The notes beneath the pieces were generated by a model. That model saw only the letters and a program-made list of their open reading frames with translations. It was not told the origin of the DNA and did not search any database. From Chiloscyllium plagiosum (lineage: Eukaryota): 64,000 nt of DNA. Both the position numbers and the translations under genes were made by a program. Numbering within the stretch: position 1 is the first letter of the stretch; every line of letters begins with the position of its first letter. Of the stretch, positions 1-62,590 are shown piece after piece. The stretch lies in NCBI RefSeq assembly GCF_004010195.1, contig NC_057718.1:103153276-103217275 (forward strand), given 5' to 3'.

Positions 1-210
1 CATTTATCTATAGTACTCTATGTTACTTTCTCCCCACCCCCCCCACCCTCCTCTCATTTATCTCTCTACCCTGCAGGCACCCTGCCTCTATTCCTGATGA
101 AGGGCTTTTGCCCGAAACGTCGATTTGATGCTGCCTAAACTGCTGTGCTTTTCCAGCACCACTCTAATCTAGAATCTGTTTCCAGCATCTGCAGTCCTTG
201 TTTTTACCTA
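1..210 (+). mobile_element. Penelope-like element 3' end (family A variant) with hammerhead motif
   Basis: C/T-rich stretch, then CTGATGAAGGGCTTTTGCCCGAAACGTC, then the family tail GATGCTGCC..TGCTGTGCTTTTCCAGCACCAC..TCCAGCATCTGCAG. The same module follows PLE ORF remnants at 3541-3660 and 7420-7620. Confidence 0.75.
94..121 (+). ncRNA. Minimal type-I hammerhead ribozyme motif
   Basis: CUGAUGA(A)-GGGC UUUU GCCC-GAAAC-GUC: conserved core, 4-bp stem II, and palindromic ACGU in place of helix III. Confidence 0.7.
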
Positions 211-589
211 ATAAGGTGAGGAGGCTTGGGTTCAAATTCCATCAGCTCCAGAGGTTTGTCATAACGTATTAGTACAGGTTTGATTAAAAATACCTGGAAA
301 ATATTTTAAATATTTCAAATCATACAGTAGAACAAAATCCCATCGACTCCCAATTCCATCTGCTTATAGTGCACTATGTCAGATAGGGTTTCCTTCTCGA
401 GCGCATCTAGAGGTTTAACTGAACTGCTCCATTCAGTCCATGGTCTGGAGATTTTAATAGTCTCTTCCTTGATTATTCACATAACTGAGCTTAAATTTTC
501 TTAGCTTCAAATACTTTGTTCAGGAATCTAATCATGAACATCTGGTATAGACTTGTCAAACTAATATCCTTACCCTGACGTTACCTACT

Positions 590-720
590 TTTAGAATAGA
601 ATCATCTTAATTGTCACATCGACTCAAAAGAATGCAGTAAAAAGTTTCTAATGTCGCCTCTCGGTGCAATCTTAGGTACAGGGTACCTCGGTATAGATAC
701 TTGAAGTGTTGTCACAGAAC
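590..720 (-). mobile_element. Probable Rex1-type LINE 3' end fragment
   Basis: Reverse complement resembles 40495-40645 and 57688-57958 (TACCTAAGAT..CTTTT.ACTG..GTGACAAT plus short tandem tail). Confidence 0.4.
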
Positions 721-1321
721 TGAAATAGCAAAATGAAAATTGACTAACATGGGAATACAGACTTTAAACAATTTAGAATGAAAATAAAAAGTGCCTTCAA
801 AGTACTCGTTATAGTCAGCAGGTTCTCTGAACTGAATCAGAAGCTTTGTAATCCATGTCTGTCTCCTGAACAAAACTTATTCTTGCTTCTTCTAAGCCAA
901 CACCAAACTGACAGTGTTCATTGCTTCATCTCTCCAATTGTAAATATCTCATAGCATAAACCAGTTCCCATTTCTACCCTGGGGCCCAATCACCTGTTCT
1001 CTTACACATACTGGTTTAAAATCAATGCTCCAGAAAAACTAATATATTTTCTGATTAAACACATCGTAAACATAGACCAAAATCTACATGTCACCTGGTT
1101 TGATGATTGTGCAACCTTGGTTTTTCGTATCCTTGTGAATTGTTCTGATGAGTGGAAGACGAAAATGTTTGATCCATGTATCTTTTTTTCAGGCATACTC
1201 AGGTGTGTCCTACCAAGCAGTTACTTGCACTAATATTATCCTGAATATTTGTTTCTAGAAGGTTTCCAACTGTCAAAGTTACACTGACATTAAACAAGGG
1301 CATAGTGTTTGCAAGTCAAGG

Positions 1322-2960
1322 ATACCCAGGAAGTGCATACCAAGGAAGTCAATCCGGGTGTTCCCAAACAGGAAACTCTGGATGAATCAGGACATACAGA
1401 ACCTGCTAAAAACCAGGTGTGAGGTCTTCAGATCAGGAGACCCACTCAAACATAAGGAATCCAAATATGACCTTCACAGAGCCATGAAGACAGCCAAGGA
1501 CCAATACCGATCCAAACTAGAGACCCAGACAGACACCCGGCGACTATAGCAAGGATTGAATGACATCACAGGTTCTAAAAAGAGACAGTACAAGATAGCA
1601 GACAATGACACATCCCTCCCAGCTCGTCTCAATGCCTTCTATGCTCGCTTTGAGCAGAATTTCGGCAGAGAGGTAACACCTATTCCGACATGTCCTGATG
1701 AATCTATCCCAACAGTCACTGCATCAGAGGTCAAATCACTTTTCCTTCATGTGAATCCAAGGAAAGTGATGGGACCAGATGGAGTACCAGGCCGTGCACT
1801 CAGAGCATGTGCAGATCAACTGGCAGAGGTCTTCTCGGACATCTTCAACCTCTCCTTGCAGCAGGCCACTGTCCCTGCCTGTTTCAGGAGGCTAACATCA
1901 TCCCTGTGCCTAAGGAGGCTCATGCAGCATGTCCCAATGACTACCGCCCAGTGGCCCTAACTTCGGTAGTCATGAAGGGCTTTGAAAGGCTGGTCATAGC
2001 ATTAATCAGCTCCAGCCTCCCCACTACTCTTGACCCACTCCAATTTGCCTATCAGACCAACAGATCCATGTCAGATGCCATATCACTTGCCCTTCACTCC
2101 TCCCTAGAACATCTTGACACCAAGAACAGCTACGTAAGAATCCTACTCATTGACCACAGTTCAGTCTTCAACACTATTATCCCCTCGAGACTGATTACTC
2201 AACTTAGTGATCTCAGACTAAGCCCCACTCTCTGCAACTGGATCCTCAGTTTCCTGACCCACAGGCCACAATCAGTGAAGACTGGGGACAATATTTCATC
2301 CTCACTAACATGCAACACTGGAGCCCCCCTGCTGTACTCTCTGTATACCCATGACTGTGTCACCAAATACCAGACTAATGCCATTTACAAGTTCGCTGAT
2401 GACATAGTCAATTGAATCTCAGATGTCGATGAAACAGACTACGGACGGGAGGTGGGAGACCTGGAAAAATAGAGCACTGAAAACAACCGAGCTCTCAATG
2501 CCGGCAAAACCAAGGAACTCATTATTGTCTTTCGGCAGGATGTTACTCATGCCCCCTACACATTAACAGCACAGAGGGGGAACGAATGGAGAATGTCAAG
2601 CTCCTGGGAGTGATCATCCACAACAAGCTTTCTTGGGCTCTTCATGTGGACGCTCTGGTTACAAAGGCCCAACAATATCTCTTCTTCCTCAGACAGAAGA
2701 GGAAATTTGGCATGCTGGCGAATATCCTTGCCAACTTTTAAAGGTGTGCCATCGAGAGCATTCTGTCTGGATGTATCACTACCTGGTATGGCAACTGTAC
2801 CATTCAAGATCAGGGATAGTTACAGAGAGTGGTGAACTCGGCCCAGACAATCACAAAGGCCAACCTCCCATCTATAGAATCTATTTACCAGGCCCACTGT
2901 CAAGGAAAGGCCGCCAGCATTCTCAAAGATCCATCCCACCCTGGCAATGTTCTTCTACAA
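1322..2960 (+). mobile_element. Rex1/Babar non-LTR retrotransposon, 5'-truncated, frameshifted RT
   Basis: ORFs 1358-1549, 1556-1960 and 1807-2415 give LNAFYARF, GPDGVPGRALRACADQLAEVFSDIFNLSL, NDYRPVALTSVVMKGFERLV, LDPLQFAY, LCNWILSFLTHRPQSV and KFADD, all typical of Rex1. Stops and frameshifts are present. Confidence 0.9.
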
Positions 2961-3112
2961 CCTGGCCTTTACTCTGCTGTTAGCACCTAATCTGTATCTT
3001 TGCTTTGTTGCTTCTGTATACCACTAGTACTCCTTTACATTCTCTTCTATTCCATCTGTGATCTCTAATCTCCCTCACCATTTAACTTTTCCTGACCTTT
3101 CCTTCTCTACCT

Positions 3113-3808
3113 AGGAGAGAGTGAGGACTGCAGATGCTGGAGAGTCAGTGTCGAAAAGTGTGGTGCTGGAAAAGCACAGCAGGTCAGTCTGCATCTGAGG
3201 AGCAGGAGAGTCAATGTTTCAGTCATAAGCCCTTCATCAGGAATGTGGGGGGAGGGGACTGAGAGATAAAGAGGAGGGTGGGAGTGGGGCTGGGGGGGAA
3301 GGTAGCTGGGAAAACAATAGGTAGATGCAGGTGGGAGGTGATGATGATAGGTCGGAGGGGAGGGTATGTCAGATAGGACAGATAGGACAGGTCAAGAGAG
3401 CGGTGCCAAGATGGAGGGTTGGATCTGGGATGAGGTGGGGGGAGGGGAGATGAGGAAACTGGTGAACTTGACATTGACCCCGTGTGGTTGGAGGGTCACA
3501 AGGCAGAAAATGAGGCGTTCTTCCTCCAGGCGTCGGGGGCAAATCCTGGGTCTCCTCCACCACCAAATCCAAGCCATCCGATGCCTAGAGGAAGAACATG
3601 TCATATTCTGCCTTGGGACCCTCCAACCACACGAAATCAATGTCAAGTTCACCAGTTTCCTCATCTCCCCTTCCCACATCTTATCCCAGATCCAACTCTC
3701 CAACATACCCCACATTCCTGATTCAGGCCTATGCCTGAAACGTCGACCCTCCTGCTCCTCGGATGTTGCCTGAACTGTTGTGCTTTTCCAGCACCACACT
3801 TTTCGACT
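3113..3808. mobile_element. Penelope-like (Neptune-type) inverted pair, family A, inserted as one unit
   Basis: Minus copy 3113-3540 (RRLEEERLIFCLVTLQPHGVNVKF) abuts plus copy 3541-3808 (CLEEEHVIFCLGTLQPHEINVKF), matching a GIY-YIG endonuclease C-terminus. Both carry hammerhead motifs. 13/15 direct repeats flank it (3097-3111, 3809-3823). Confidence 0.8.
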
Positions 3809-3839
3809 CTTCCCTTCTGTACCATCTGACACCTCCACC

Positions 3840-4864: not shown

Positions 4865-5440
4865 CAGGCTATTCAGCCCTGTGCGCTGCACCCCCGTTCT
4901 ATACGATCATGGCTGATCTAGTTTCTGCTTCAACTCCACTTTCCTACCTGCTCTCCATAACCCTCCAACCCATTACAATTTTAAAAACCTGGAGGAAAGG
5001 AGGACTGCAGATGCTGGAGATCAGAGTCGAGAGTGTGGTGCTGGAAAAGCACAGCAGGTCAGACAACATCCGAGGAGCAGGAGAGTCGATGCTTTGGGCA
5101 TGAGCCCTTCATCAGGAATCCTGATGAATGGATTCTGCCTGAAATGTCGATTCTGCTGCTCTTTGGATGCTGCCTGACCTGCTGTGCTTTTCCAGCACCA
5201 CACTCTCAACAATTTAAAAAAACCTGTCTACCTCCTCCTTAAAGTTACTCAATGTCCCAGCATCCACCGCACTCTGGGGTAATGAATTTAACAGATTCAC
5301 CACCCTTTGAGAGACGTGATTCCTCCTCATCTCTGTTTTAAACCTGCTACCCCTTATCCTACAACAATGACCTCTCATTCTAGATTGCCTCACATGAGGA
5401 AACATCCTCGTTTCATCGACATTATCAATCCCCTTGAGCA
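4865..5440 (-). mobile_element. CR1 LINE 3' fragment, interrupted by a PLE cassette
   Basis: ORF 5214-5441(-) SRMRGHCCRIRGSRFKTEMRRNHVSQRVVNLLNSLPQSAVDA matches the CR1 ORF2 C-terminus. Confidence 0.85.
4992..5208. mobile_element. Fold-back PLE family A cassette with two head-to-head degenerate hammerheads
   Basis: Inverted arms centred near 5117 (TTCATCAGGAATCCTGATGAA); imperfect TSD ACAATTTTAAAAACCTG 4975-4991 / ACAATTTAAAAAAACCTG 5209-5226. Confidence 0.8.
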
Positions 5441-7390: not shown

Positions 7391-7621
7391 TAAGAGCTGA
7401 AAATGTGCTGCTGGAACAGCGTATCATCTGCCGTCATTTCTGCCACCTCCAAACGGACCCCACCACCAAGGATATATTTCCCTCCCCTCCCCTATCAGCG
7501 TTCCGTAAAGACCACTCCCTCCGTGACTCCCTCGTCAGATCCACACCCCCCACCAACCCAACCTCCACTCCCCGCACCTTCCCCTGCAACCGCAGGAGGT
7601 GCAAGACTGGCGCCCACACCT

Positions 7622-7797
7622 NNNNNNNNNNNNNNNNNNNNNNNNNNNNNNNNNNNNNNNNNNNNNNNNNNNNNNNNNNNNNNNNNNNNNNNNNNNNNNN
7701 NNNNNNNNNNNNNNNNNNNNNNNNNNNNNNNNNNNNNNNNNNNNNNNNNNNNNNNNNNNNNNNNNNNNNNNNNNNNNNNNNNNNNNNNNNNNNNNNN
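7622..7797. other. Assembly gap (176 N)
   Basis: Run of N. Confidence 1.
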
Positions 7798-7969
7798 CAG
7801 CACCGCCTTCCTCACCTGCAATCTTCTTCCTGACCTCTCCGCCCCCACCCCAGTCTGACCTATCACCCTCACCTTGACCTCTTTCCACCTATCGCATTTC
7901 CAACGTCCCTCCCCCAAGTCCCTCCTCCCTACCTTTTATGTTAGCCTGCTGGACACACTTCCCTCATTC

Positions 7970-7997
7970 CTGAAGAAGGGCTTATGCCCGAAACGTC
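7970..7997 (+). ncRNA. Minimal hammerhead ribozyme motif
   Basis: CUGAAGA(A)-GGGC UUAU GCCC-GAAAC-GUC. Confidence 0.7.
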
Positions 7998-8860
7998 GAT
8001 TCTCCTGTTCCCTAGATGCTGCCTGACCTGCTGCGCTGTTCCAGCAACACATTTTCATCTCTGATCTCCAGCATCTGCAGACCTCACTTTCTCCTCTATG
8101 TTCTATAAGAGTCTAGTGATGACCACGAATCCATTGCTGATTGTTGGGAAAACCCACATGGTTCACTCATGTCCTTCAGGGAAGGAAACTGCCATCCTTA
8201 CCTGGTCTGGCTTACATACAACTCCAGACCCACAGCAATGAGGTTGACTCTCAACTGTCTTTTGGGTTATCAATGAAGGGCAGTAAATTCTGGTTCAGCC
8301 TGCGATCCCATATCCTGTGAAAGAATTAAAAAATACCATGACAACTCACCAAGTATCCAGGGCAGGCAGACTAATCCCAAGCAGAGATTAAGGAAAATAA
8401 AGTTCAAAGGGGCTGAATCGCATGTTTTGTTGACTCCATGTGATTTGTGTCAAGTGTTTTGGAGGGATTCGCACCACTGGCCCTCACCCCTGAAGTCATC
8501 CCTCCCACCTGAACCTATCCTCAGTGTAGCATGTACAATTTGCTGAATAACTTATCACTCATTGGGTTGGAAGGTGCTCCTCATTTCCTGGGCAGACAGC
8601 CGTGGACAAAGGCTATCACCTTGACTTGACAACCAGGACGAAGCGCCCTCTGCGCCAATGAGCAAGGCAAGGGAAAGCTGGGAGCTCAGAGGGAGTGAAG
8701 AGCCCAAATGGGATGCAGCCTGGTGCAGTCCATCAGCTGGGAGTGTGTTCCTGAGCAGGCAGTGTCTGTACTGTAGTGTTACAGTGAGAGTTACCGGGCA
8801 GCCTGAGATGCAGCATTGAAGCGCAGAAGCATCCTGTCAGTGGATCAGCAACATGGCATT

Positions 8861-13870: not shown

Positions 13871-15137
13871 AATGGAACATTGCCAAGAAAAAAATGCAGA
13901 TAATACCCCTTTTAATTTTTGCATCAATTAACGCAGTGACTTTGCTTTGATAAAAGTGGATGTAATGGTAGATGGAATTCCACTGGCTTCTCCAGCTGTG
14001 CAGATATGAAGGTGTCACTGATCACACTAATGAGTCCCCTTTTTTTTTATGTGTAGAAACTCATTTTCCTGACTTTGGGACTCGCCATTTATGTAATGTC
14101 CTCACCTTCGATTCTTTCCTGAACGTATAGGGTTACAGTGAATGGTAACGATGGGGAGTGGGCAGCTGGCTTTGAACTCTGCTTGGACCTCCCCCGGTTG
14201 TGAGCTTAATGGTCTCTGTCTAGATGCAACATCCACTAACCAGCTCCCCATGCCACCTCCACCCTGCCTGCCAAGGCTGAGTTAACCTAGTGAAAACAAC
14301 TAGCCGTAAAGGGTAACACTTATGGATGCTTTACTGAAATATGTCCTTCAATTCTCTTCACTAGAAGACAAACAATTATCTTCACTGAAAGATAAAAGAG
14401 AAATGTTTAATCTCCGGGCTGGTGTTAGATATGCAGATAAATCATCCTGGATATTCAGGAAACACTGGGACTCATTAATGCTTCAGATCTAACAATATTT
14501 AACCATTCCAATAATTCACTTGTGACACAAATTTTGTTTTATTTTATCAGTGTCCATTTAAATGCAATCTATTCATTACATTGATCAAACTGTGGTCAAC
14601 CATCTGGTTTGGCTCATGTCAAATTAGCCTTACTGGTCAAAGCAGGCATTATACCAACCGACCTAAAACCTTCAGCTCTATGTGGCTCTCAGACAAATTA
14701 TTAACAGTTATAAGAGGTTTGGAGATCTTTTGGCAAACAATTGTTTCATAAGCTCTGTGTAGCTAAGTGCCAACTATGGCTCAATGGGCAGCACTCGAGC
14801 CTGTGAGTCAGCAATGCTGTAGATTTAAGTTCTAATCCAGGGCCTGACACTCCAGTGTAGTACTGAGGGGGTGTTGTCCTTCATCTGGATTTTAAACCAA
14901 GTTATCCCCTCTCAGGCTGATGTAAAACTTCACCTGGTCACTATTTTGAGTGAAAGCAGAGGGGGTCTGTTCCAGGGTCAATATGTATCCCTCAGCCAAA
15001 AGCACAAAGTGGATGATCTAGTCCTTATCGCATTGTTATTTTATGGGATCAAACTATCTGCAGTTTGGCTTCCATATTTTCCTCCTTACAAACGCAAATG
15101 TGTAATTTAATTGGTTGTAAAGGGTTTTATGGAAGGC

Positions 15138-15321
15138 GAAACTTTATTGCTGGAACAGCACAGCAGGTCAGGCAGCATCCAGGGAACAGGAGATTCAACG
15201 TTTCGGGCACAGGCCCTTCTTCAGGAATCTCCTGTTCCCTGGATGCTGCCTGACCTGCTGTGCTGTTCCAGCAATAAAGTTTCAACTTTGATCTCCAGCA
15301 TCTGCAGACCTCACTTTCTCC
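15138..15321. mobile_element. Fold-back PLE family A cassette
   Basis: Perfect 59-bp inverted arms 15138-15196 / 15225-15283; perfect 13-bp TSD TTTTATGGAAGGC at 15125-15137 / 15322-15334. Confidence 0.9.
15197..15224 (-). ncRNA. Minimal hammerhead ribozyme core closed by a 59-bp helix I
   Basis: Minus strand reads CUGAAGA(A)-GGGC CUGU GCCC-GAAAC-GUU, exactly filling the spacer between the arms. Confidence 0.7.
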
Positions 15322-15545: not shown

Positions 15546-15679
15546 ATATCTTCCATGCTGAAAGTAGGTTTGCTCTCTGAGCTGCAAGATTCAGTTTCAG
15601 ATGTTTCATCACCATACTAGGTAACATCATCAATGAGCCTCCAGTGAAGCACTGGTGTTAGTGACCCGCTTTCTAGTTA

Positions 15680-17224
15680 CAGTGGAAACCTGATTATCAG
15701 AACGAGATGGGCAGGCACTATTTGGTTTGTATAATCAATTATTTGGAAAATCTATTAAATGCCTTTCCTCTGGGGCTCGGAGTTTTAAAGTCTGCTCCCC
15801 GTTCTGGGGTGCGCGCAAGCCCCCACCCTCAACACCACTCCCCACCAGCCCCAGTCCAGCACCGCCCCCCCAAACCAGTCCAACCCCTGCTGCCCGCTCC
15901 CCAACCTGGTCCAACCCCGCACTCAAGCACAATGCGTGCGAGTCCAACCCCGCCCCCAACACAGTCCACTGCCAAACTCCGCCCACCCCTAGGGCAGCCA
16001 CACTGTACACCAAGACTGCTGCAGTTGTCTTTGTGGGGTAAGTCTCCAAATACCACACACAGAGCCACAGCTACACACACACAAAACTTCTTACAGCAAA
16101 TGTTTAACAGATTCCACGTTTGTACAGGGGAACCTCGATTATTCAAATACCAATTATCCGAAAATCGGATTATCTGAAGGAGATTTCGAGGTCCCGATAG
16201 AAACATTACATCAAAGACGTGTTTCCAACAGTGATCGTGTCTTTTTTTTACAGTGATTAAACAGGCACTGTCTCCAAATGACTGACCTCCCGCCCTCTCT
16301 CGACCCCACCCATTCCCTGTGGTTCTAGAGGGATGTACCCTCCTTCCCAAGATAATCTCTCCCACATTGTCCTGTGCAGGGTAAACGTGGAACCTGTCAA
16401 AAATTTGCAGTAAGAAGGTGTGTGTGTGTGGCTGTGGCTGTGGGTGTGCTATTTGGGGACTTACCCCACAGAGGCAACAGCAGCAGTCTTGTTGTTGGTG
16501 TGCAGTCCAGATACCCCCGAGAGGGGTTGGGGGTGGATGTGGGGTGGTCGGCAGGGGGCTGTGTTGGATGGAGGGGCTCGCGCGCTTTGTGCTGGGGGAG
16601 CGGGGGTTGGTTGNNNNNNNNNNNNNNNNNNNNNNNNNNNNNNNNNNNNNNNNNNNNNNNNNNNNNNNNNNNNNNNNNNNNNNNNNNNNNNNNNNNNNNN
16701 NNNNNNNNNNNNNNNNNNNNNNNNNNNNNNNNNNNNNNNNNNNNNNNNNNNNNNNNNNNNNNNNNNNNNNNNNNNNNNNNNNNNNNNNNNNNNNNNNNNN
16801 NNNNNNNNNNNNNNNNNNNNNNNNNNNNNNNNNNNNNNNNNNNNNNNNNNNNNNNNNNNNNNNNNNNNNNNNNNNNNNNNNNNNNNNNNNNNNNNNNNNN
16901 NNNNNNNNNNNNNNNNNNNNNNNNNNNNNNNNNNNNNNNNNNNNNNNNNNNNNNNNNNNNNNTGGGGGACAGGGTTGGACGGGGTTGTGGAGCGGGGGGG
17001 GGCGGGGTTGGATGGGGCTGGGAGGTGGGGTAGGACTGGATTGGGGGGGCGGTGTTGGGGGCTGGGGCCTCGTGCGCTGGGTGTTGCTGCAGTCTCCTGA
17101 ACGGGGAGCAGAATTTAAAAACTCCGAGCCCCAGAGGAAAGGCATTTAATCGATTAACCAAATAATCGATTATCCGAACGAAATAGTGCCCGCCCATCTC
17201 GTTCAGATAATCGAGTTTCCACTG
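15680..17224. mobile_element. Non-autonomous Tc1/mariner-pogo (Tigger-like) fold-back DNA transposon
   Basis: TA|CAGTGGAAACCTGATTATC ... GATAATCGAGTTTCCACTG|TA. 15680-16122 is an inverted, diverged copy of about 16380-17224. No transposase ORF is visible. Confidence 0.85.
16614..16962. other. Assembly gap (349 N) in a G-rich low-complexity tract
   Basis: Run of N. Confidence 1.
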
Positions 17225-28157: not shown

Positions 28158-28260
28158 TATTCCTGATGAAGGGCTTTTGCCTGAAACGTCGATTTTCCTG
28201 TTCCTCGGATGCTGCCTGACCTGCTGTGCTTTTCCGGCACCACTCTGATCCAAACTCTCT
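28158..28260 (+). mobile_element. Penelope-like family A end with hammerhead motif (28163-28190)
   Basis: CTGATGAAGGGCTTTTGCCTGAAACGTC followed by the family tail. Confidence 0.75.
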
Positions 28261-42870: not shown

Positions 42871-42877
42871 TAAAAAA

Positions 42878-43025: not shown

Positions 43026-43361
43026 AATCTTCTCACATCCTGTAGGTTTGTTCATTTTTAAGGTTCCTGTTGAGATTTCTCAAGGGATATGTTTTTGATT
43101 TTTGGGCACTATTTTTTGGTTCTCAGGGCTACTTTCTCAATCTTTTAAATTCCTTTATTAGGGGATGCCTTACACAATGACATTACCTTCTGGATTTCTA
43201 TTGTCATGTGTGATATCTGAAAACAACAGAAGCAGAATTAGAAGGATTGATCACATTTTCAATAATTATCAATCCTCCATTAGATTGAAAGCACTAATAC
43301 ACAGGAAAGCAATTGTTTCCTCAGTCCCACAGTTTTCAAATTGGCACAACTAAGGCATTAG

Positions 43362-43570
43362 GAGAAAGTGAGGACTGCAGATGCTGGAGACCAGAGTTGA
43401 AAAATGTGATGCTGCAAAAACACAGCATGCCAGGCAGCATCCGAGGAGCAGGAGAATCGACGTTTCGGGCATAAGCCCTTCCTGAAGAAGGGCATATGCC
43501 CGAAACGGCGATTCTCCTGTTCCTCGGATGCTGCCTGGCATGCTGTGTTTTTCCAGCACCACATTTTTCA
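43362..43570. mobile_element. Fold-back PLE family A cassette
   Basis: Inverted arms around CCCTTCCTGAAGAAGGG; plus-strand core CTGAAGAAGGGCATATGCCCGAAAC at 43482-43506; perfect 16-bp TSD ACAACTAAGGCATTAG at 43346-43361 / 43571-43586. Confidence 0.9.
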
Positions 43571-43913: not shown

Positions 43914-44449
43914 TATTATTTACATGAAGTTGGTACATTTCACCAGGTAATTGTTACCTTTTTTCACTTCTATCAGTTAATTCTGTTGCAATACAGTCAA
44001 CATTTTACCCTTTGTGGATGCATCCATCCATGAACTGGTAAATGGTTTATTCTGAAGTTGAGTTTAATTCTTTATTATCTTCAAATCTTGACCTTAATGG
44101 ATTTCAAAGGTTAACGACAGATAGACCTGACATGTTCAGTCTGTAAGGATATTCACTGTCTATATCTGCATTAAGTTCAGTGGCTTATTTATCTGCTTTC
44201 GAGATACTGAGGTCCAGAAAACACAGCTCAACATTTTGCCGGAACAAAATGAATTTGGGGACTGATTGCTTGCTGTCTAATTGAATGGAAAGTAGAGCAC
44301 ATTTTGCACCTTCTCACAGGATTTTTAAAAATGCTTTCTGACATTTTTCACAGCTGTCTAGTTTCTTCAACGTTTTCCAGAGTTATAGTCGCTCTGAGTT
44401 GCAGTACCTTTAGCAGAGACTGTCCTGTGTGGTGATAGGTTAGAGTGGT

Positions 44450-44830
44450 GTTGTTAAATCTTTTTGGCTTACACTCATCAGGACCATTCACAGGAATCCC
44501 AATTCAAGGAGAAAACCAACATTATTCGGCTTTAAATGAGAGTTCTCATTGGTCAGCAATAGACTCTGATCAGTAGAGGTATTGCTGTGGAGAATGTACC
44601 AGTTGATGATGATTGGCAGTTAACTGCCAGGTTGTGCTTAAATTTTAAACTAGGCAGGTTGCCTCTGTCTGGTCACGGTATTATCCTGAGAAATGAACCA
44701 GTGATTTGTTATCTCTTATTTTATTGAGTTGAGACAGGTGCATTGCATGTCCATGTTTTTACCATTTGCAAAGAACAGAGCCCTCAATGTTAAAATGTGT
44801 ACCTTCTAGTAATCACAAGTGCACCACAAT
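44450..44830 (-). mobile_element. Penelope/Poseidon-like 3' end (family D)
   Basis: Colinear with 9720-9856 plus 10031-10260 (CACTCATCAGGAC, CAATTCAAGGAG.AAACCAAC, GTGGAGAATGTACCA, TTTGCAAAGAACAG). Confidence 0.7.
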
Positions 44831-46044: not shown

Positions 46045-46385
46045 AATACAGACACACACACACATGCACACACAAATAACAAGTGCAAGTGTATTTCCAA
46101 CTGACTTTGAAAGTACAAACAAAATCTGGAAAACTCAGCAGGTCTGGTGGCATCTGTGGAGACAAATCAGTTAACATTTGTGTCGAGTGACCCTTCCTCA
46201 GAACCCTCTGGTTTGGGGAGTTCTGTAGAAGGGTCACAGAACCTGGAATGTTAAGTGTAATTTCTCTCTCCACAGATGCTGCTCGAACTCCTGAGTTTTT
46301 CCAGCATTTTGTTTATAATTTCAAAGGTAGCTGGAGATACACTTGCAAGTCTCCCTTGCACTTGTTACGTGTGTGTCTGTATGTG
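46045..46385. repeat. Imperfect inverted repeat centred on two head-to-head family B PLE ends
   Basis: Family B minus (46120-46205) and plus (46219-46313); symmetry continues outward through AACAAGTGCAAGTGTATTTCCA / TGGAGATACACTTGCA..TGCACTTGTT and the CA/TG tracts. Confidence 0.8.
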
Positions 46386-47500: not shown

Positions 47501-48095
47501 AAACCCAATGTTTTATTTTGTTGATGTGGTAGAACATATGCTTCCATATGGGAATAGATATGCAGATATTATTATAATATTTGATGCATGATATTTAGTC
47601 TGATACTAGCCTTGGGTCCTGGTCTAATCAGGAAAGGAACCTTTGGGTTAGACTGTACAGATGTCAAGGGGACAGGTTGGCAGTGGGTGTGGTGATTGTG
47701 TAAAATTACAGCTCTGTGGATATATTGCACCTTATCACAGGTTAACCTGACTGCTGGTTTGTCACTGGTTTTGTTTTCAAGGGGCCTGTTTCTCCTATTG
47801 CTGGTTGCAAATTGCTTTTCCAAGACGAAGAGTTCTGGTCGTTTCTCTGGTGGGATTTTCTGATCAGAGGTATTCCCTTCTCAGCAGCTGTTCAGCTTTG
47901 CAGTCCAATCTTGCAGGGGTCCTATTTTGATAGATTGTTTTTTTTTTAAAGTCCATCTCTTCTCCAAATGATTTTGATCTGTTTACTGACCTTCCCTGTG
48001 GCCACAACTTTCTAGGGAGTGGATCCTGATGCTGCCACCATCTTTTATCAGCTTTTATCATGTGCTTCAAAAACAGACTGGTCACAGAAAAGACA

Positions 48096-48320
48096 GAGCT
48101 GAAAACGTGGTGCTGGAAAAGCACAGCAGGTCAGGCAGCATCCAAGGAGCAGGAGAATCGACGTTTCGGGCATGAGCCCTTCTTCAGGAATGAGGAAAGT
48201 GAAGAAGGGCTCATGCCCGAAACGTCGATTCTCCTGCTCCTTTGATGCTGCCTGACCTGCTGCGCTTTTCCAGCAACACATTTTCGGCTCTGATCTCCAG
48301 CATCTGCAGCCCTCACTTTC
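48096..48320. mobile_element. Fold-back PLE family A cassette
   Basis: Minus-strand intact core CTGAAGAAGGGCTCATGCCCGAAACGTC (48160-48187) and a plus-strand copy lacking the first C; perfect 14-bp TSD TCACAGAAAAGACA at 48082-48095 / 48321-48334. Confidence 0.9.
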
Positions 48321-48874
48321 TCACAGAAAAGACAAAGTCAAGAAAAGTCATCAGGCCTAGATTTCAAATCAACATTATTTATTGCACAATCATACTGAAC
48401 ATTGCTTTACATGGCCATCATAAATAAAGTAGACTCTGACTTATATTATTTCAAGACCATGCTATCTTCTTCATGTGTTCACATTTGTGCTCTCCCAATT
48501 GACAGAGTTCCCTCTCATGTTCTGGTTGCACTATATTCTAACTCCGCCCACACTACTATTTATCACCAGAGATGTGCAGCTCCATGATATTATCACAAGG
48601 CTGCTCCGTGGTCCTGAAGCCCTTACACAGCAGTTTGTGATAATCTTTTACCTGATCAAACAGAATTAAAATTCCAATCACTGTTTGGATCGCTGGAAAT
48701 TAAAGAGGATTTGGGATAAACTGTCACAGGTTACAGCTGCACAACACAGCGATCCTTAATTGTAAGCCCAGCTTTTCACCTTGTAATCTGAAACAATCTG
48801 AAAATTACAGTTATTTTGTCATTATCCTCTTTTTAGTCTGTTCACGCTTAGCATGTTACCTTGTTCAGCAGAGT

Positions 48875-49070
48875 TAAAAATTAACCCCAGATTATAGTCC
48901 AACAGGTTTATTTGGAAGCACTAGCTTTCGGAGTGCTGCTCCTTCATCAGGTAGCTCCTTTGCAGCGCTCTGAAAGCTAGTGCTCCCAAATAAACCTGTT
49001 GGACTATAACCTGGGGTTGTGTGATTTTTAACTTTGTCCACCCCAGTCCAACACCGGAATCTCCACGTCA
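48875..49070. mobile_element. Fold-back cassette, probable PLE family C, with hammerhead motif
   Basis: Arms TTATAGTCCAACAGGTTTATTTGG.AGCACTAGCTTTC / GAAAGCTAGTGCT.CCAAATAAACCTGTTGGACTATAA; minus-strand CTGATGA(A)-GGAG CAGCA CTCC-GAAAGC-TA at 48922-48950. Confidence 0.75.
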
Positions 49071-52487: not shown

Positions 52488-52585
52488 GATGGAATCTGAT
52501 CACTGCTCTCCACCCTATCCCTCCTCACCATGGCAGCAACCCCCTGCTGTGTCTGTACTTACACATCAGGCTGCCTGTCTGCACA

Positions 52586-52780
52586 GTCGAGAATGTGGCG
52601 CTGGAAAAGCACAGCAGGTCAGGCAGCATCCGGGGAGCAGGAGAATCAACATTTCGGAATAAAGAGCTTATGCCTGAAACATCGATTCTCCTGCTCCTTG
52701 GATGCTGCCTGACCTGCTGTACTTTTCCAGAACCATACTCTCGACTTTGATCTCCAGCATCTGTAGTCCTAACTTTCTCC
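52586..52780. mobile_element. Fold-back PLE family A cassette (older, centre deleted)
   Basis: Inverted arms around 52660; degenerate TSD CTGCCTGTCTGCACAGTC / CTGCCCGTTTGCATAGCC (14/18). Confidence 0.8.
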
Positions 52781-52799
52781 TGCCCGTTTGCATAGCCAT

Positions 52800-53006
52800 A
52801 TAGAACTTAGAACATAGAACTGCACAGGCTGTTCGGCCCTCGATGTTATGCTGACCTGTTATCCTACTCTAAGATCTACATTAACTTACATACCCTTCAT
52901 TGTACTATCATCCAAGTGCCTATCCAAGAGTCGCTTAAATGTCCCTAATGTATCTGATTCTACTATCACTGCTGGCAGTGCATTCCACGCACCCACCACT
53001 CTGTGT
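52800..53006 (-). mobile_element. CR1 3' end
   Basis: (TAGAACA)n tail, TTCGGCCCTCGATGTT, GCTGGCAGTGCATTCCACGCACCCACCACTCTG. Confidence 0.8.
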
Positions 53007-54800: not shown

Positions 54801-54854
54801 TATTGGACTCTAACATTTTTGCCTTGTTGTTTCTCACCTCTGTCCATCAGCATT

Positions 54855-55600: not shown

Positions 55601-55729
55601 GTACAATTGAAGATAATTGCTTGCTGTTGTAACTATTCAAGCCTGTACAGAAGAAGCTGCTCCACCACCTTTTCCTTCCTGCTTGCTGATTTGAGAAGTC
55701 ACATGACCCTAAATAATCCTAAGCATAAC

Positions 55730-56066
55730 AAAGCATAGACTGGATGATCGCTTTGCAGAACACCTACATTCCCAAAAAAGACCCTGAGCTTCCAGTTGCC
55801 TGTCACTTCTACACCCCACCCTGTTCCGTGGCCAACATCTCTGTCTCAGACTTGATGCAGTGTTCCAGTGAAGCTCAGCACAAGCTGGAGAAACAACACC
55901 TTGCTTCCCGCTTGGCAATTCTTGGTAATCTTAGGGTGTGAGCACCGTTCTCCACGCTTTCCCCCACCCTCACACACCAGGTCTTGTTATCTCATGGTCT
56001 GCTATTACACACAATCCCCATTAGCAGCCATTCATTCTCCCAGGCTGATCATTACCCACTCCTTTT

Positions 56067-56097
<31 letters not shown>

Positions 56098-56260
56098 AGG
56101 CTCTATCTGCACCTGTTGTTTACTCCTTACCCCCCTCCCCCTGTATTTTCCCAGCTGCCATCAGTTCTGAGGAAGGGTTACCAGACCCAAAACTCTGATT
56201 TCTCTCCACAGGTGCTGCCAGACCAATTGAGATTTTTCAGCAATCTGTTTTTATTTATTT
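55730..56260 (+). mobile_element. Penelope-like (Neptune-type) family B: GIY-YIG C-terminus and 3' end
   Basis: RLDDRFAEHL/KKDPELPVACHF..SSEAQHKLEKQHLASRL; then AGTTCTGAGGAAGGGTTACCAGACCC..CTCTCCACAGGTGCTGCCAGACC. Confidence 0.8.
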
Positions 56261-57014
56261 AGTTCCCAGCTTTAAACTCCTCTTAACCATGTCTCCATAA
56301 TGGCTACATGATCTATTTATATATTAATTCATTTATTTTATTCTGAGCATTATGCACATTCAAGTAAATATCATTAATTTTGCCTTTTGTCTGTTTGATT
56401 CTCCCTTTCACTCTATTTTGAGCACAAAATGTACTCTGGGTGGGGGTTTTCAGTGTCCACCACTAAGAGTGACTCGGCAGCAGCACTACTGATCGAGTTG
56501 GTCAGGTGCTAAACTGGGTCTGCAGCAGGTGGTGAGGGAACCAACACGAGGGAAACACATACCTGACTTCATCCTTACCAATCCTCCAGCTGCAGATGTA
56601 TCTGTCCATGACGGTATCTGTAAGCGTGATCACCGTCCAGTCCTTGTGCAGACAAAGTCCCACCTTCACATTGAGAATACCCTCTATCGTGTTGTGTGGC
56701 ACTGTCACCGTGCTAAATGGGACTGACTTCAAACAGATCTAGCAACTCAGGACTGGGCATCCATGAGGTGCTGTGTGTCACCAACAGCAGCAGAATTGTA
56801 CTCCAGCACAATCTGTAGCCTCATGGCCTGGCATATCCTCCACTCAACCATTACCATCAAGCCAGGGGATCAACCCTGGTGCAATGGAGAGTGCAGGAGG
56901 GCATGTCAGAAGCAGCAGTGGATATACCCTGAAGATGAGATGTCAACCTGCTGAAGCCACCAAACAGGAATACTTGCCAAACAGCACAAGCTGCATATGG
57001 TGGACAGAGCTAAG

Positions 57015-57147
57015 AGACCCTGATAAAGGGCGTATGCCCGAAATATCAACTCTCCTGCTCCTCGGAAGCTGCCTGATCTGCTGTGCTTTTCCAGTGCCAC
57101 ACCTTTTGTCTCTGACTCTCCAGCATCTGCAGTCCTCACTTTCTCCT
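57015..57147 (+). mobile_element. Single-arm PLE family A end
   Basis: CTGATAAAGGGCGTATGCCCGAAAT..CTCACTTTCTCC; 9-bp TSD AGAGCTAAG at 57006-57014 / 57148-57156. Confidence 0.85.
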
Positions 57148-57958: not shown

Positions 57959-58938
57959 TGGAACCAATGGGTATCGGGGGCAAGCTCTCTGCTGGCTGGA
58001 GCCATACTTGGCACAGAGGAAGATGGTCATGGTTGTTGGAAGTCACCATTCTGACTTGGAAATATATCGCTGTTCCTTCAGTCAAAATCCTGGAATTCCC
58101 TCCCTAAGGGCATTGTGGGTCTACCCACAGCACGTGGACTGCAGCGGTTTAGGAAGGCAGCTCAACCCCACCTTCTCAAGGGGCAACTAGGTATAGGTGA
58201 TAAACACCAGCCCATGTCTCACGAGTGAATTTATGAAAATATGTAAATAAAATGCAGGGGCTGAAAAACTTTGTAATGCTGTCATGTGTGCCAATTTGTT
58301 TAAAATTATCCACATTCTAATGGATAGCTGCTGCATTTCACATGACTCCATTTGTAATGTTATCGGAACAAACAGAAACACAGAATTATGTTATAGATTT
58401 CCTACTTCAGGGCAGGAATTCTGCTGCCATTGTTCCGGGACTGGGTGGGGGGTGGTATATGACAACCTCACTACATTGTTGATGCCAGGGAGCATTGCTC
58501 ATTGATTAGCTTGGGTAATCACATCTTCGTTAATCAAATTTCTCTAATATTCTGTCACATTTTTTACATTATGCTGCATTATTTTTCCAATTTGATTTCT
58601 TCAGTGCTTGACGTTGTTTTGTCTGTGGCTAAAGTGATTAGATTACAGAGTCTTGCATGGCTGTATCTTTAAGCTGGCTGGCCCAAGCTGGGACAGGCTA
58701 TGTCTGATAATGCTCCATAGGGTATGGATAGATGCAGGACAACAGGTTTGGTTCAGTGGGTGATGGAGGGAGCAGTAATTCCTAGAGAAAGAGGTGCGGG
58801 TGGTGTTGGTCTGCAAAATATTACTTTTATAGTGGGGTTGCTTTCAACAGAGGCATAGTGATTACTTAGGCATTCTGTCAAATAAAAATGAAACAAAGGC
58901 TGGAGAAAAAACTATGCAATTTCTTTCTTTTTCAAAAC

Positions 58939-59220
58939 AAAGTGCTTTCTAGAATGGTTTGTACAATTTTTTTATTTTTAAAAAAAGTCCATTCTAAAAT
59001 GGTATTTTCTTTTTGTAAAGCAGTGCATTTTAAAATGGCTCGCACAATTTTTTATTTAAAAAGTGCATTCTAAAATGGTTTATACAATTGTTTTTATTTT
59101 AGAAAAAGTGCAGTCTAAAATGATTTACACGTTATTTTCTTTTGGTAAAGAAGTGCATTTGAAAATGGTTTATAAATTTTTTATTTTTTTTTAAAAAGTG
59201 CATTCTAAAATGGTTTATAC
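58939..59220. repeat. AT-rich minisatellite, 7 units of about 36-45 bp
   Basis: Consensus AAAAGTGCATTCTAAAATGGTTTATACAATTTTTTATTTT. Confidence 0.9.
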
Positions 59221-60419
59221 ATCATACAGATTTGATGATAGCTTCATTTAATGAACCCACTCTGGTGTACTCGTGACCGCAATTACACATCGACTTTGCT
59301 CATAAATTACTTCTCAACCTTTAAATATCACTTCTGACAAACAAAAGAAAGAATATGTAACTGAATTTCCTGAAGGGTTTGAAATATCAGGTTGGGATTA
59401 TTATTGTTTATGTCTCTGTTTTTGTAGCTCTGATGTCTCCATAGTCTGCTGTGTTCTGTGCCTGGCACTGATGGATGACCAACACAGTAGCTTATTGGAA
59501 ATGGGTTGATTTATAACCCTCCGTCTTTCAATCTAATGGCTTCATTTCTTTTCCAACAGCACATGATGTCACAGCCAAGGTCACCCCGCCAATGCCCTTT
59601 CTGTTGTCTGGTTGCTGATGGCCAGATTGTTTGAGATTCAGGCGTGTGAGAAGGTAGCCTTTAATTTTTAATTTTTTTCCCCTTCTCTCTCTCTCTTTCT
59701 CTTCTTGATAAGTATAAGCCAACAGTAGATTAAATGCCTTCTTATATTCAGTTCACACTGCTTGTCAGACAGTGGGCTGCTTTATGATGCTGGGTGAGAA
59801 ACTGCATTACTCACATCTCCTTTAAATGACCAACATCAAATATATACAGCTCCCATTAAGGGCAGAATCAATAAAAATACCATTAAGATAGTAAAAGTTG
59901 CTGATATTAGTGGAGCCCAAACAAAATATTTGATTTTCTTTCAGATAGTTAGTGAGATGGGATAGAAACACTCTGAGAAAAGAGATCAGGCTATGCCTAT
60001 GGTCAATAATTTATCTCTCAGATTCATATGGGTATATCTCCAGATATTGCCTTCTGTCTATTGATTTCCACATCATGATTTGTCATAAGCCACCCCTAAC
60101 TCAAGGGGAAAATATACCCTGTGTCCAGTCAGGCCATGCTGATAGAATGGAGAGAGGTTTTCATTAAATTCAAAACTCCTGGGCTCCATCACAACTCGTA
60201 GGCATTTTACAACACTCAGTTCCTGCAAACTGGTTTTTATCTGTAAGCACGCAGGGAAGCAAGTGATTTATTTCAAACTGTTTGTTTCTTTTTAAACCTC
60301 CATAAGAAGTCATTTGAAACATATGGACTCAGCAGTTATATGCAATGGGGGTGCTTTCACGATGCCGTATTCCTATTAGCGACAAGGACAACAGTGAGGA
60401 CCTGACTTCGCCGGCTGAT

Positions 60420-62030
60420 GTATGTGTTTCCACTGCTTCCCAACATGCCCCCTTGTTCCCCCCTCCCCACCCCAACCCCCTGGCTCCACATCCTATCAAC
60501 CACAACCAGGGTGGATCCTCTATTCAGCAGAAGGGAGAACATGTCAGAGACAACTCTTTGGAAGGTGGCATCATCTGAACAGATACAAAAGAGATGGGGA
60601 ATGGGATGGAGTCCTTACAGGAAGCAGGGTGTGAGGATATATAGTCCAGGTAACTATGGGAGGGGCGAGTTTGCAGTGGATATCAGTAGCTGGCCTATCC
60701 CTGGAAAAGGAAACAGAGATGACGAGGAAGGGAAGGGAGGAGTCAGAGTTGGACCGGCTGAAGGCGAGGGAAGGACTGACATTGGAAACAAATTGGATAC
60801 ATGTGTTTTCTATTTGCGGGTGAGACAGGAAGCAGCACCAATAAACATTGTCAATGTATTGGAGAGAGGGTTGTGGGTCAGATACTGAGTGGGACTGGAA
60901 TGAGGAATACAGGCATTGGCCTGGCGGTATTATTGTGAAGCTATTAATCCAGAGACCCAGGTAGTGTTCTGAGGTCCTTGGTTCAAATCTTGCCAAGGCA
61001 GATAATGGAATTGGTATTCAAGAAAAAATTGGAATTAGGAGTTTAGTGATGATCATGAAGCTATTGTCAATTGGAAAACCCATCTGGTTCACTAGTACCC
61101 TTTGGGGAAGGAGACTGCTATCCTCACCTGGGCTGGCCAGCAATGTGGTTGACCCTTAACTGACCTCTGGGCAATAAGAGATTGACAATAAATGCTGGCC
61201 CAGCCAGTGACACCAATATCCAATGAATTTTTAAAAATCACCCCACAAAGGGACAGCATTAACTGGGACCCATGCAGGGTACCCATAGCCACATCTTTGA
61301 CAAAAGTGAGACGTGTTAAAGGGAAAGTTGCTCAAACCCAGGAGCGGTTCAGCCAGGCAAAGGAGGTCAGTGATGGCTGGGGACAGTTCAGGCCTCCTTT
61401 CATGGAGGAAGCAGAGAGCCTTCAGACCATCCTGATGGGCGATGGGCTGTGTCAAGGGGTTGCATGTCCATAACAAAGAGGAGGCAGGTAGCAGCAGAAA
61501 CTGGAAATTGTGGAACCAGTGTAAAATGTCAGAAGAATCATAACTGGGGAGGGACTGAACACAGGAGGAAGAAATAGAATCAAAATGGAAAGATGTAAGA
61601 AATGAGTGGCACCGGAAGAGGATGAAACAATGGGGCTGCCAGGCTAATCCTGTCTGTGAATTGTAGGGACAAGGCGCAAGCCGCTTTGGGGGAATAATGA
61701 AGTGGGGTGCGATAAAGTGGAGTTAACTGGAGATTCTCAGGAGGACGAAGGGAATCCTTCAGGGATGTCCTCAAAAACTCCTGAAGAGGTCAGACACCAT
61801 GCTGACCCCTGGGAATCCCTGTCTGGTGATTGAACAAAGTGTAGAAGGCTCACTGGGAGACCTCATCGGGAATGCATGGAGGTGTTGGTCAAGGTGTCAC
61901 AGGGAGTGCACAATCCTCCAAGCTGCCCATCTACCCAAGCTTCCAAATCCTGCATGTGACAGAGTGGCTGAATCGCACATTAGGCTCATCAATCACCCCA
62001 GAGAGATGATCAGACCAGAGGAGTTATAAG
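60420..62030 (-). mobile_element. Penelope-like (Neptune-type) RT region, degenerate, split by a SINE
   Basis: IAHQDGLKALCFL..DLLCLAEPLLGLSNFPFN.SHF.Q; MAMGT; LQYIDNV; SDSSLPFLVISVS..ATDIHCK. The extent beyond about 61700 is uncertain. Confidence 0.75.
60915..61235 (+). mobile_element. tRNA-derived SINE with CR1/L2-type tail
   Basis: TAATCCAGAGACCCAGG..GGTTCAAATC..CCCATCTGGTTCACTAG..CAATAAATGCTGGCCCAGCCAG. Confidence 0.8.
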
Positions 62031-62590
62031 AGCTGTACATAAGGAGATAGTGTGATTCACTGCAGGAGAGGATCACCGGATTGATTCCAGCATTGTCAGA
62101 GCTGAGGCAGAGCGGAAATCAATTGCCTGGTGTTCAGAAGCAGGAAGGGGGATCTCATTTTACATTGCAACACACAAGGACTTGACGGCTGAGAGACCAT
62201 CACCTCTGCCATGTTGAGGAGCATAGTCCCCAGTGAGGAATATTCAGGACTGAAATCAGAAGCACTTCCTTCAGTCGGAGGATTGCATACCTTCAGAAAT
62301 TTCCAGCCGGCAGAGCGGAGCATTCTCAGTGCTTGAGACAATTCCAAAGTAAGACTAATTGACTCATGGCCCCTGAGAGATTCAAGACAAATGGGGGTAA
62401 GGCCGGAAAGTAGACTTAAAGTAGAAGATCAGCCCTGAACTGATCAAATAGTCATGATGTCACCTGATGAAGGAGCAGCGCTTAATAAGTTTGTGATTTC
62501 AGATAAACATGTTGAACTATAACTTGGTGTCATCTGACTTCTGACCTTATTATATGTTTTTTAGGCTTGAGGGGCTGAATGGCCTACTTC
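62030..62590 (+). mobile_element. Degenerate CR1 3' fragment with a family C PLE end inserted (about 62455-62548)
   Basis: CAGGAGAGGATCACC.GATTGATTCC..GGGGATCTCATT..AGATCAGCC|GGCTTGAGGGGCTGAATGGCCTACT; the insert CACCTGATGAAGGAGCAGCGCT..ATAAAC.TGTTG.ACTATAAC matches 48960-49035. Confidence 0.65.

What the first reader, a model, noticed from the sequence alone, without database searches (positions are those of the whole stretch)
94..62490. Minimal hammerhead-ribozyme motifs from about five different Penelope-like families are scattered across the window
Seen: family A has CUGA(U/A)GA-A-GGGC-loop-GCCC-GAAAC-GU(C/U). It is intact at 94, 7970, 15197(-) and 48160(-), near-intact at 28163 and 43482, and decayed at 3211(-), 3718, 5085(-), 5121 and 57020. 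The stem II GGGC/GCCC is held while the loop varies (TTTT, TTAT, CTGT, ATAT, TCAT, GTAT), the signature of selection on RNA structure. Unrelated families use the same grammar with other stems: B agtt-CTGA.GA-AGGGT..ACCC-GAAAC-GTT-aact (all copies decayed), C ac-CTGATGA-AGGAG..CTCC-GAAAGC-TA-gt, D gtc-CTGATGA-GT..AAGCTTC, and E ca-(C)TGATGA-TGTTACC..GGTGA(C)-GAAAC. Established: PLE terminal repeats carry minimal type-I hammerheads whose helix III is replaced by a palindrome (ACGU/AGCU) and which are thought to cleave as dimers; an extra A after A9 is tolerated in some natural hammerheads. Inference: at this density, any long transcript through the locus would carry several potential self-cleavage or dimerisation sites.
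Basis: partly seen in the sequence, partly recalled or inferred. Interest (0 to 1): 0.7.

Follow-up and report, generated by a model that had tools for sequence, protein, structure and literature searches.

The report
Shark Penelope retroelement hammerhead relics
The motifs are real copies of the tiny self-cutting RNA motif already known from Penelope-like jumping genes, left in this likely shark DNA as mostly broken end-pieces that decay without sign of protection, and their RNA copies span the predicted cut site and carry what are likely A-to-I edits in the catalytic core.

Summary
Observation confirmed: 6 motifs fit a strict minimal-hammerhead descriptor against 0.03 by chance; about 20 more arms are decayed. 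Families A and B are related, not unrelated, and follow Neptune-type Penelope endonuclease remnants. C has Penelope insertion anatomy. D (3 copies) and E (1 copy) are not tied to a Penelope protein. The loop does vary more than stem II, but that points to selection on the source elements. Inserted copies lose catalytic G12 as often as the tolerated neighbouring C (8.6% vs 8.4%), and family A shows no compensatory pairs. Intact same-strand copies lie 0.8-33 kb apart, and two are predicted buried in fold-back hairpins, so host-transcript cleavage is unlikely. Family copies often begin at stem I (7966), not at the cut site; RNA reads run through the cut site and show strand-specific A>G at A13-A15. 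The kind is published (Cervera and de la Pena 2014). This scan found it before on other shark DNA (284 notes, 27 or more genomes). Verdict: new member of a known kind, interest 0.25.

The parts
90..125 (+). Family A minimal hammerhead, intact core (C3 at 94, predicted cut 121|122), in a Penelope 3' end that runs to about 205
3114..3810 (.). Head-to-head family A insertion: endonuclease C-terminus on both strands (3455-3535 -, 3549-3644 +), decayed hammerheads at 3240(-) and 3718(+), tail on the left arm only
4993..5210 (.). Fold-back family A insertion, both arms starting at stem I; decayed hammerheads 5115(-), 5121(+); 13-nt flanking repeat with 1 mismatch
7397..8095 (+). 5'-truncated Neptune-type element: inverted 25-nt stub (7397-7421), RT-thumb/Cys-linker remnant (7420-7620), assembly gap, 3' UTR, intact hammerhead (C3 7970, predicted cut 7997|7998), tail to 8095; 17-nt target duplication 7380-7396 / 8095-8111
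15133..15321 (.). Fold-back family A insertion joined through stem I: intact hammerhead on the minus strand (C3 15224) closed by a long perfect stem; the tailed arm starts at the cut-site position; 13-nt target duplication
28159..28247 (+). Solo family A copy starting at stem I, core intact, G-U wobble at the base of stem II, no tail
43361..43568 (.). Fold-back family A insertion; 43482(+) lacks U16.1, the other arm is cut inside the core; 16-nt target duplication
48093..48322 (.). Fold-back family A insertion; intact hammerhead at 48187(-) predicted to be buried in the hairpin; 14-nt exact target duplication
52576..52780 (.). Fold-back family A insertion, both cores truncated
57019..57147 (+). 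Solo tailed family A copy, decayed core, 9-nt flanking repeat
55728..56270 (+). Family B element end: GIY-YIG endonuclease C-terminal remnant (55728-55923), UTR, decayed hammerhead at 56167
46105..46325 (.). Family B fold-back pair (46201 -, 46223 +), both decayed; other B arms at 3887+, about 10662-, 10873+, about 13415+, about 15440+, about 21550-, about 50159-
48860..49060 (.). Family C fold-back insertion with an intact-core hammerhead at 48950(-) (AGCU palindrome), tail on one arm; predicted to be misfolded or buried
62457..62535 (+). Family C solo copy, 3' half of the core lost
63700..63860 (.). Family C fold-back insertion without the 5' half of the core; 13-nt exact target duplication; tail on one arm
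44448..44580 (-). Family D copy (C3 44481), decayed; the others at 9754(-) and 1145(+); homology runs about 100 nt upstream; parent element not identified
15565..15690 (-). Family E, single copy, C3 changed to U, 6-bp stem II; parent element not identified
60492..61551 (-). Broken Neptune-type reverse transcriptase remnant with no hammerhead next to it

Best explanation
These are minimal type-I hammerhead motifs in the terminal repeats of Penelope-like retrotransposons (shown for families A and B, likely for C, untested for D and E), left as short broken insertions that decay with no sign of protection and likely do not cut host RNA. Mechanism in the source element (inferred from published work): two motifs in a tandem transcript would pair through their ACGU palindromes to build helix III and cut after GUC, slowly and probably with help from the element's protein; this is why core and stem II are held across subfamilies while N7 and the loop drift. 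Insertion likely uses uncut RNA: reverse transcription would start at one of two internal sites (about 85 or 125 nt behind C3) and often run only to the start of stem I, likely the RNA's 5' end. That gives 90-130-nt stubs, often as head-to-head pairs with a tail on one arm between 13-17-nt target duplications (anatomy shown). After insertion the copies decay by CpG deamination (shown). When read through by host transcription, the fold-back copies would form long hairpins that are likely edited by ADAR.
For: Motifs exceed chance. Neptune-type linker and endonuclease remnants lie directly upstream on the same strand of A (7420-7620; 3455-3644) and B (55728-55923); full-length relatives carry RT plus C-terminal GIY-YIG, and the closest named hits are whale-shark proteins. 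7 of 7 inverted family A insertions have the tail on one arm only, and so do 2 of 2 in family C by eye, as described in PMC8557442 and PMC11167929. Exact 13-17-nt flanking repeats at 5 of these 9, 11-13 nt with one mismatch at 3, none convincing at 1. CpG sites differ in 21/88 cells against 47/724 elsewhere, 20 of 21 transitions. Genome-wide, G12>A is 8.6% and 13.8% against C11.1>T 8.4% and 13.4% in two DNA runs; listed non-CpG core changes are <=0.42% apart from N7 (15-24%); three loop sites reach up to 9-23%. Loose 5' ends pile up at 7966/7967 (336 and 284 contigs in X1, 367 at 7966 in X13), 3' ends at 8050-8055 and 8094-8096. RNA depth is flat across the cut site, with no begin/end pile-up. 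In Anolis, hammerhead mutants still insert and uncut RNA is the main template (PMC11167929).
Against: No cleavage was measured. The RNA run is one single-cell poly(A) library, about 2% of it read, a weak test for cut ends; its sister run laid 0 reads. Reads come from the whole family, not this locus (47 of 3565 are 99% alike or more). The 5' pile-up could partly be an alignment edge, because upstream UTRs differ between subfamilies: long copies also stop aligning at -9/-10. Only 18 of 898 loose-end rows were shown, so a minority starting at the cut site is not excluded, and one window arm (15225) does start there. Depth-weighted contig percentages are not copy counts and favour near-intact copies. 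Families D and E lack a protein link.
Confidence: 0.75

Rival explanations
1. The scattered copies act in host transcripts as self-cleavage or dimerisation sites.
For: 6 cores are intact. The family is present in RNA on both strands, 3565 of 12.96 million reads. The 15224(-) copy is predicted to hold stems I and II with an open core (P about 1.0).
Against: Same-strand intact copies are 7.9 and 20.2 kb apart on plus and 33.0 and 0.76 kb apart on minus; the close pair mixes ACGU with AGCU and both are predicted misfolded. Stem I probability is <=0.06 for four of the five intact A copies. G12 decays at the neutral CpG rate. Published min-HHR monomers show no cleavage and dimers little; 1 of 9 Xenopus dimers cleaved. 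No host gene was identified in the window.
Confidence: 0.05
2. The motif is kept in the source elements mainly as a folded signal (protein binding, RNA start or template boundary), and catalysis hardly matters.
For: Copies start at stem I rather than the cut site. Cleavage is dispensable for insertion in vitro and no cut-site reads were seen in Anolis. The family A monomer misfolds by 3-6 kcal/mol. Naiads spread without canonical hammerheads.
Against: All catalytic positions, the UH triplet and the palindrome are kept in the intact copies of two families with different stems, as expected if cutting is selected. The Anolis motif cuts when protein is added.
Confidence: 0.12
3. The 130-nt unit is its own non-autonomous, retrozyme-like element that spreads through tandem or circular RNA cut by its own dimers.
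For: Head-to-tail joints 8095>7965/7966 occur in 12+22 contigs of X1 and 7+16 of X13; such units are same-strand and 130 nt apart. Non-LTR retrozymes derived from pLTRs are reported in one chondrichthyan (bioRxiv 10.64898/2026.07.22.740005).
Against: No such tandem is in this window. These joints are a few dozen among 85,249 and 60,167 records laid. The unit boundary is at stem I and the tail, not at the cut site. No RNA read of X21 showed these joints. Short copies share subfamily variants with ORF-linked copies.
Confidence: 0.08

Closest known systems
Minimal hammerheads (min-HHR) in pLTRs of metazoan Penelope-like elements (Cervera and de la Pena 2014, PMC4209133; parts 1-2 of 4 read)
   Same: Type I core without helix III, extra base between A9 and 10.1, G10.1-C11.1, palindromic 15.2-16.2, several families per genome, mostly single truncated copies, some pairs on opposite strands, found in Neptune elements of fishes.
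   Different: No shark is named in the parts read (supplements not seen). Family A has a 4-bp stem II and a weak stem I (2+1 bp), against 7-8 bp and 4-5 bp in the Schistosoma examples. The paper does not describe the 5' pile-up at stem I.
EN+ Penelope-like elements, Neptune type (Craig et al. 2021, PMC8557442; passages)
   Same: RT, Cys linker, C-terminal GIY-YIG; strong 5' truncation; adjacent inverted truncated copy; tail at one end only.
   Different: Only remnants are present here, no full ORF; clade was not tested with an RT tree; the tail here is about 40-45 nt.
Poseidon element of Anolis, PAc (Frangieh et al. 2024, PMC11167929; parts 1-3 of 4 read)
   Same: Two 3' ends a tail apart; copies and RNA reads span the hammerhead cut site.
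   Different: A different clade. Protein-assisted cleavage and two RT start sites were measured there and are only inferred here.
Animal non-LTR retrozymes (Li et al. 2026, bioRxiv 10.64898/2026.07.22.740005; parts 1-3 of 5 read; PMC7229834 seen as search listing only)
   Same: pLTR-derived short units with a type I hammerhead; rare head-to-tail units in this family's contigs.
   Different: No tandem array in the window; nearly all copies here are solo or head-to-head.
A-to-I hyper-editing of repeat dsRNA (Porath et al. 2017, PMC5625713; passages)
   Same: Penelope is heavily edited in lizard; palindromic repeats are edited without a partner; elephant shark has many sites.
   Different: The passages read do not place edits in the hammerhead core.

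Membership tests
min-HHR of metazoan PLEs | Core CUGANGA / GAAA / UH in type I order | tested here: met
   6 strict hits against 0.03 expected: 5 of family A, 1 of C; none of B, D, E is intact
min-HHR of metazoan PLEs | [quoted passage not shown] | tested here: met
   Extra A in all 6 strict hits; G-C in 5, G-U in 28163; family D lacks the extra base
min-HHR of metazoan PLEs | Helix III reduced to a palindrome | tested here: met
   ACGU in A, AGCU in C; 4-bp intermolecular duplexes of -3.1 and -4.5 kcal/mol
min-HHR of metazoan PLEs | Short helix I (4-5 bp; 2 bp in the D. virilis variant) | tested here: inconclusive
   Family A: 2 pairs, a mismatch, 1 pair; predicted pairing <=0.06 except in 15224(-)
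min-HHR of metazoan PLEs | Location in the terminal repeat of a PLE | tested here: met
   A and B follow PLE protein remnants; C by anatomy only; D and E not shown
min-HHR of metazoan PLEs | Covariation in stems | tested here: inconclusive
   0 two-sided changes in family A; stems differ between families while staying paired, by inspection of few and mostly decayed copies
min-HHR of metazoan PLEs | Low, dimer-dependent self-cleavage | not testable with these tools
   Needs in vitro transcription; RNA reads show no end pile-up, a weak test
Neptune-type EN+ PLE | RT followed by Cys-rich linker and C-terminal GIY-YIG | tested here: met
   Remnants match 816-946 aa proteins with RVT_1 and GIY-YIG hits, most just under Pfam cut-off; in the 7420-7620 copy the third Cys reads Gly
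Neptune-type EN+ PLE | Inverted 5'-truncated copy and a tail at one end | tested here: met
   7 of 7 inverted A insertions, 2 of 2 C
Neptune-type EN+ PLE | Placement in the Neptune clade by RT phylogeny (Nematis shares the linker) | not tested
   No named reference set was at hand; the label rests on the linker and recall
Non-LTR retrozyme | Tandem units, each with a complete hammerhead | tested here: not met
   None in the window; rare 130-nt head-to-tail joints elsewhere in the genome
Non-LTR retrozyme | Circular RNA of unit length | not testable with these tools
   Poly(A) library; the back joints were seen in DNA contigs only

The most novel reading that the evidence does not exclude
The tens of thousands of stubs are a fossil map of the Penelope cycle. 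They are run-off copies from two internal RT start sites to the uncut RNA's 5' end, which lies at the first base of hammerhead stem I, so the ribozyme sits at the very front of the element's RNA and cuts only in rare tandem dimers. Meanwhile ADAR edits A13-A15 of the core in fold-back transcripts, which would switch read-through ribozymes off. The 15224(-) copy, with stem I locked by its own inversion, would be a natural ready-folded half-ribozyme for testing trans-dimer cleavage.
Probability: 0.3. Interest if true: 0.55.

Novelty: new member of a known kind. Interest (0 to 1): 0.25.

Why it matters
The motif class, its link to Penelope terminal repeats and its high copy number in lower vertebrates were published in 2014. 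I found no paper on shark Penelope hammerheads in the library, but that is a gap in sampling, not a new system. What remains open in the field is what the Penelope hammerhead does in vivo. This very abundant family offers cheap tests: where copies start relative to the cut site, whether tandem 130-nt units cut, and whether editing of the core is real.

Tried and rejected
No whole genome is held, so family-wide data come from laid contigs and reads only. Rfam gave no hammerhead model match. My first descriptor had stem I out of register and found 3 hits; it was replaced. Pfam found nothing on the Penelope remnants themselves. The word-index protein search found no relative of the 60571-61017 RT piece or of the stop-interrupted frame upstream of family D; a pairwise comparison with a Neptune-type protein was also blank (E 0.10). 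That frame's likeness to a Penelope endonuclease C-terminus is recalled only. A profile of 49 Neptune-type proteins found nothing upstream of C, D or E; it may not see other clades. No family A match in viral or metagenome contigs. No RNA holder listed for 46700-56500; run X22 laid 0 reads; neither is evidence. Lunse et al. 2017 on dimer cleavage is not held; I saw its title only. Rejected: chance; selection on the inserted copies; 'five unrelated families'; covariation within family A. Locus-specific transcription and host exons were not tested beyond ORFs of 120 aa or more and Pfam on 13 of them.
Full report
Observation. A strict minimal-hammerhead descriptor finds 6 motifs (94+, 7970+, 28163+, 15224-, 48187-, and family C 48950-) against a mean of 0.03 in 30 dinucleotide shuffles; allowing one mismatch gives 9 against 0.6. 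Rfam has no model that catches them. The inventory is 17 family A arms in 10 insertions, 10 family B arms with no intact core, 2 core-bearing C copies, 3 decayed D copies and 1 E copy with C3 changed. A and B are homologous behind the motif, so they are not unrelated.

Host and parent. No genome is held. The frame at 7393-7620 matches 324 proteins at E<=0.001. Five of the ten I looked up are whale-shark proteins and one is from a stingray, so the DNA is likely from a shark. [quoted passage not shown] With these proteins, tblastn places linker or endonuclease remnants directly upstream of A at 7970, of the head-to-head A pair at 3240/3718 and of B at 56167, plus an RT remnant at 60492-61551 with no hammerhead beside it. 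Nothing was found upstream of C, D or E.

Anatomy. Seven of ten A insertions are inverted pairs. In all 7 one arm ends about 83-95 nt behind C3 and the other about 117-127 nt behind it; both C pairs look the same by eye. Of these 9, five have exact 13-17-nt flanking repeats, three have 11-13 nt with a mismatch, and one has none; boundaries were hand-picked and no shuffle control was run. This is the published Penelope signature: inverted truncated copy and a tail at one end, traced in Anolis to two internal RT start sites.

Selection test. In 11 in-register A copies (arms cut inside the core were left out), non-CpG differences from the majority are 10/44 in the loop, 3/76 in stem II, 5/121 in the core and 28/451 in the tail. 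Loop versus stem II gives p=0.004; core plus stems versus tail gives p=0.35. Arms of one insertion are not independent. No pair changes on both sides. CpG sites differ in 21/88 cells, 20 of them transitions. Laid contigs of two DNA runs (30,244 and 23,483 records) give the family-wide picture: N7 varies at 15-24%, three loop sites at up to 9-23%, listed non-CpG core changes are <=0.42% and stem II <=1.5%, while the CpG that joins stem II to the core loses C11.1 (8.4%, 13.4%) and the general base G12 (8.6%, 13.8%) equally. So the source elements were under selection for the motif and the inserted copies are not. These percentages are depth-weighted and favour near-intact copies.

Where copies begin. 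On 7800-8110, 85,249 and 60,167 contig records were laid; this is not a copy number. Depth rises about threefold at 7965. Unrelated flanks join at 7966/7967 (336 and 284 in X1; 367 at 7966 in X13), 4 nt before C3 and 32 nt before the cut; 3' ends lie at 8050-8055 and 8094-8096. In the window 9 of 13 short arms start between -6 and +1, one at -14, one at +18, one at +64 and one at +28, the cut site, where stem I gives 4 nt of microhomology. Caveats: alignment edges are fuzzy, long copies also stop aligning at -9/-10 because UTRs diverge, and 880 loose-end rows were not shown. Head-to-tail joints of the 130-nt unit exist but are rare (34 and 23 contigs for 8095>7965/7966). I noted the run-off idea before reading earlier scan notes, which hold the same idea and add a capped 5' end; I did not test the cap.

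RNA. One single-cell poly(A) run gave 3565 reads of 12.96 million, on both strands; the other gave none. Depth is flat across 7997|7998 (739.5, 734, 727.5 on the sense side) and no place shows a pile of ends; this shows uncut molecules, not absence of cutting. Taking the tool's strand rule, A>G reaches 5.9%, 7.2% and 8.6% at A13, A14 and A15.1 and 6.1% at the extra A in sense reads, against 0.6-1.5% in antisense reads and 0.06-0.42% in DNA; T>C mirrors this at 8001 and 8003. Six of the ten adenosines are listed, all higher in sense reads, and three of the four unlisted ones follow a G, the neighbour ADAR avoids (recalled). Against this: other changes are also strand-biased (U4>A 27.5% vs 1.8%; 7981 C>G 0 vs 5.8%), so a few loci dominate the reads, and the DNA is not known to be from the same animal. 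Editing of Penelope repeats is known in lizard (PMC5625713).

Could the copies cut? Stem II forms, but stem I has probability <=0.06 in four of the five intact A copies, and the core mispairs with the GUC region. 48187(-) and 48950(-) lose stem II in context; the eight short fold-back insertions folded give -77 to -184 kcal/mol. Only 15224(-) has the hammerhead fold as its lowest-energy form, and it still needs a partner for helix III. Same-strand intact copies are 7.9, 20.2, 33.0 and 0.76 kb apart, and the close pair has different palindromes. Published monomers do not cut and dimers cut little; the Anolis motif needs protein; 1 of 9 Xenopus dimers cut. No host gene was identified and transcription of this locus was not tested.

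Mechanism. Shown: motifs, parentage of A and B, insertion anatomy, neutral CpG decay, reads across the cut site. From the literature: dimer formation through the palindrome, low and protein-assisted cleavage, internal RT starts on uncut RNA. Inferred: that the stem I boundary marks the RNA's 5' end, and that the A>G excess is ADAR editing.

Novelty. The class was described in 2014 (PMC4209133, parts 1-2 read). A search for Penelope + shark + hammerhead ribozyme returned one paper, where 'shark' only explains the name; a second search returned the whale-shark genome paper, seen as listing only. Supplements of PMC4209133 and of the 2026 preprint, which samples one chondrichthyan, were not seen and may list shark motifs. 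The scan holds 284 similar notes in at least 27 genomes; these are unchecked and are not used as support. Verdict: real, new member of a known kind, interest 0.25.

Noticed in passing
window 43700-43913 and 44880-45404: A stretch of about 200 nt is duplicated at 99% identity over 159 nt (D19), 1.5 kb apart; one copy is split by a SINE-like repeat, and the decayed family D copy lies between them. Recent local duplication or assembly artefact.
   Followed up: partly
window 44681-44929 (-): A stop-interrupted frame 200-450 nt upstream of family D reads like the C-terminus of a Penelope-type endonuclease by recall; searches did not confirm it.
   Followed up: partly
window 8023-8044, and the same place in A and B copies: The tail region conserved between A and B reads like a branch point, pyrimidine tract and AG (3' splice site); no spliced reads were among the rows shown.
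   Followed up: no
window 7933-7939, 55-61, 3268-3274 (-): A TTTAT motif sits about 30 nt upstream of the 7966 boundary in three long copies, TATA-like spacing for an RNA start at stem I; not tested.
   Followed up: no
window 36512-37821 (-): LTR-retrotransposon remnants: RVT_1 (E 1e-20) and rve integrase (E 9e-10).
   Followed up: no
window 1550-2983: Broken non-LTR retrotransposon with an RVT_1 hit (E 2.5e-14).
   Followed up: no
window 15678-17226: 112-nt inverted arms (89%) around a GC-skewed interior and an assembly gap (I14); likely a non-autonomous DNA transposon; it abuts family E.
   Followed up: no
window 58906-59214 and 46369-46634: A 45-nt AT-rich tandem repeat and a degenerate TG microsatellite (D12 and D2).
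   Followed up: no
runs X1 and X13 laid on 7962-8012: Several loop and stem I variants are common in X1 and nearly absent in X13 (7982 T>C 6.2% vs 0.2%; 7984 A>G 8.4% vs 0.7%; 8000 T>A, which completes stem I, 5.9% vs 0.1%): a subfamily likely expanded in one lineage only.
   Followed up: partly
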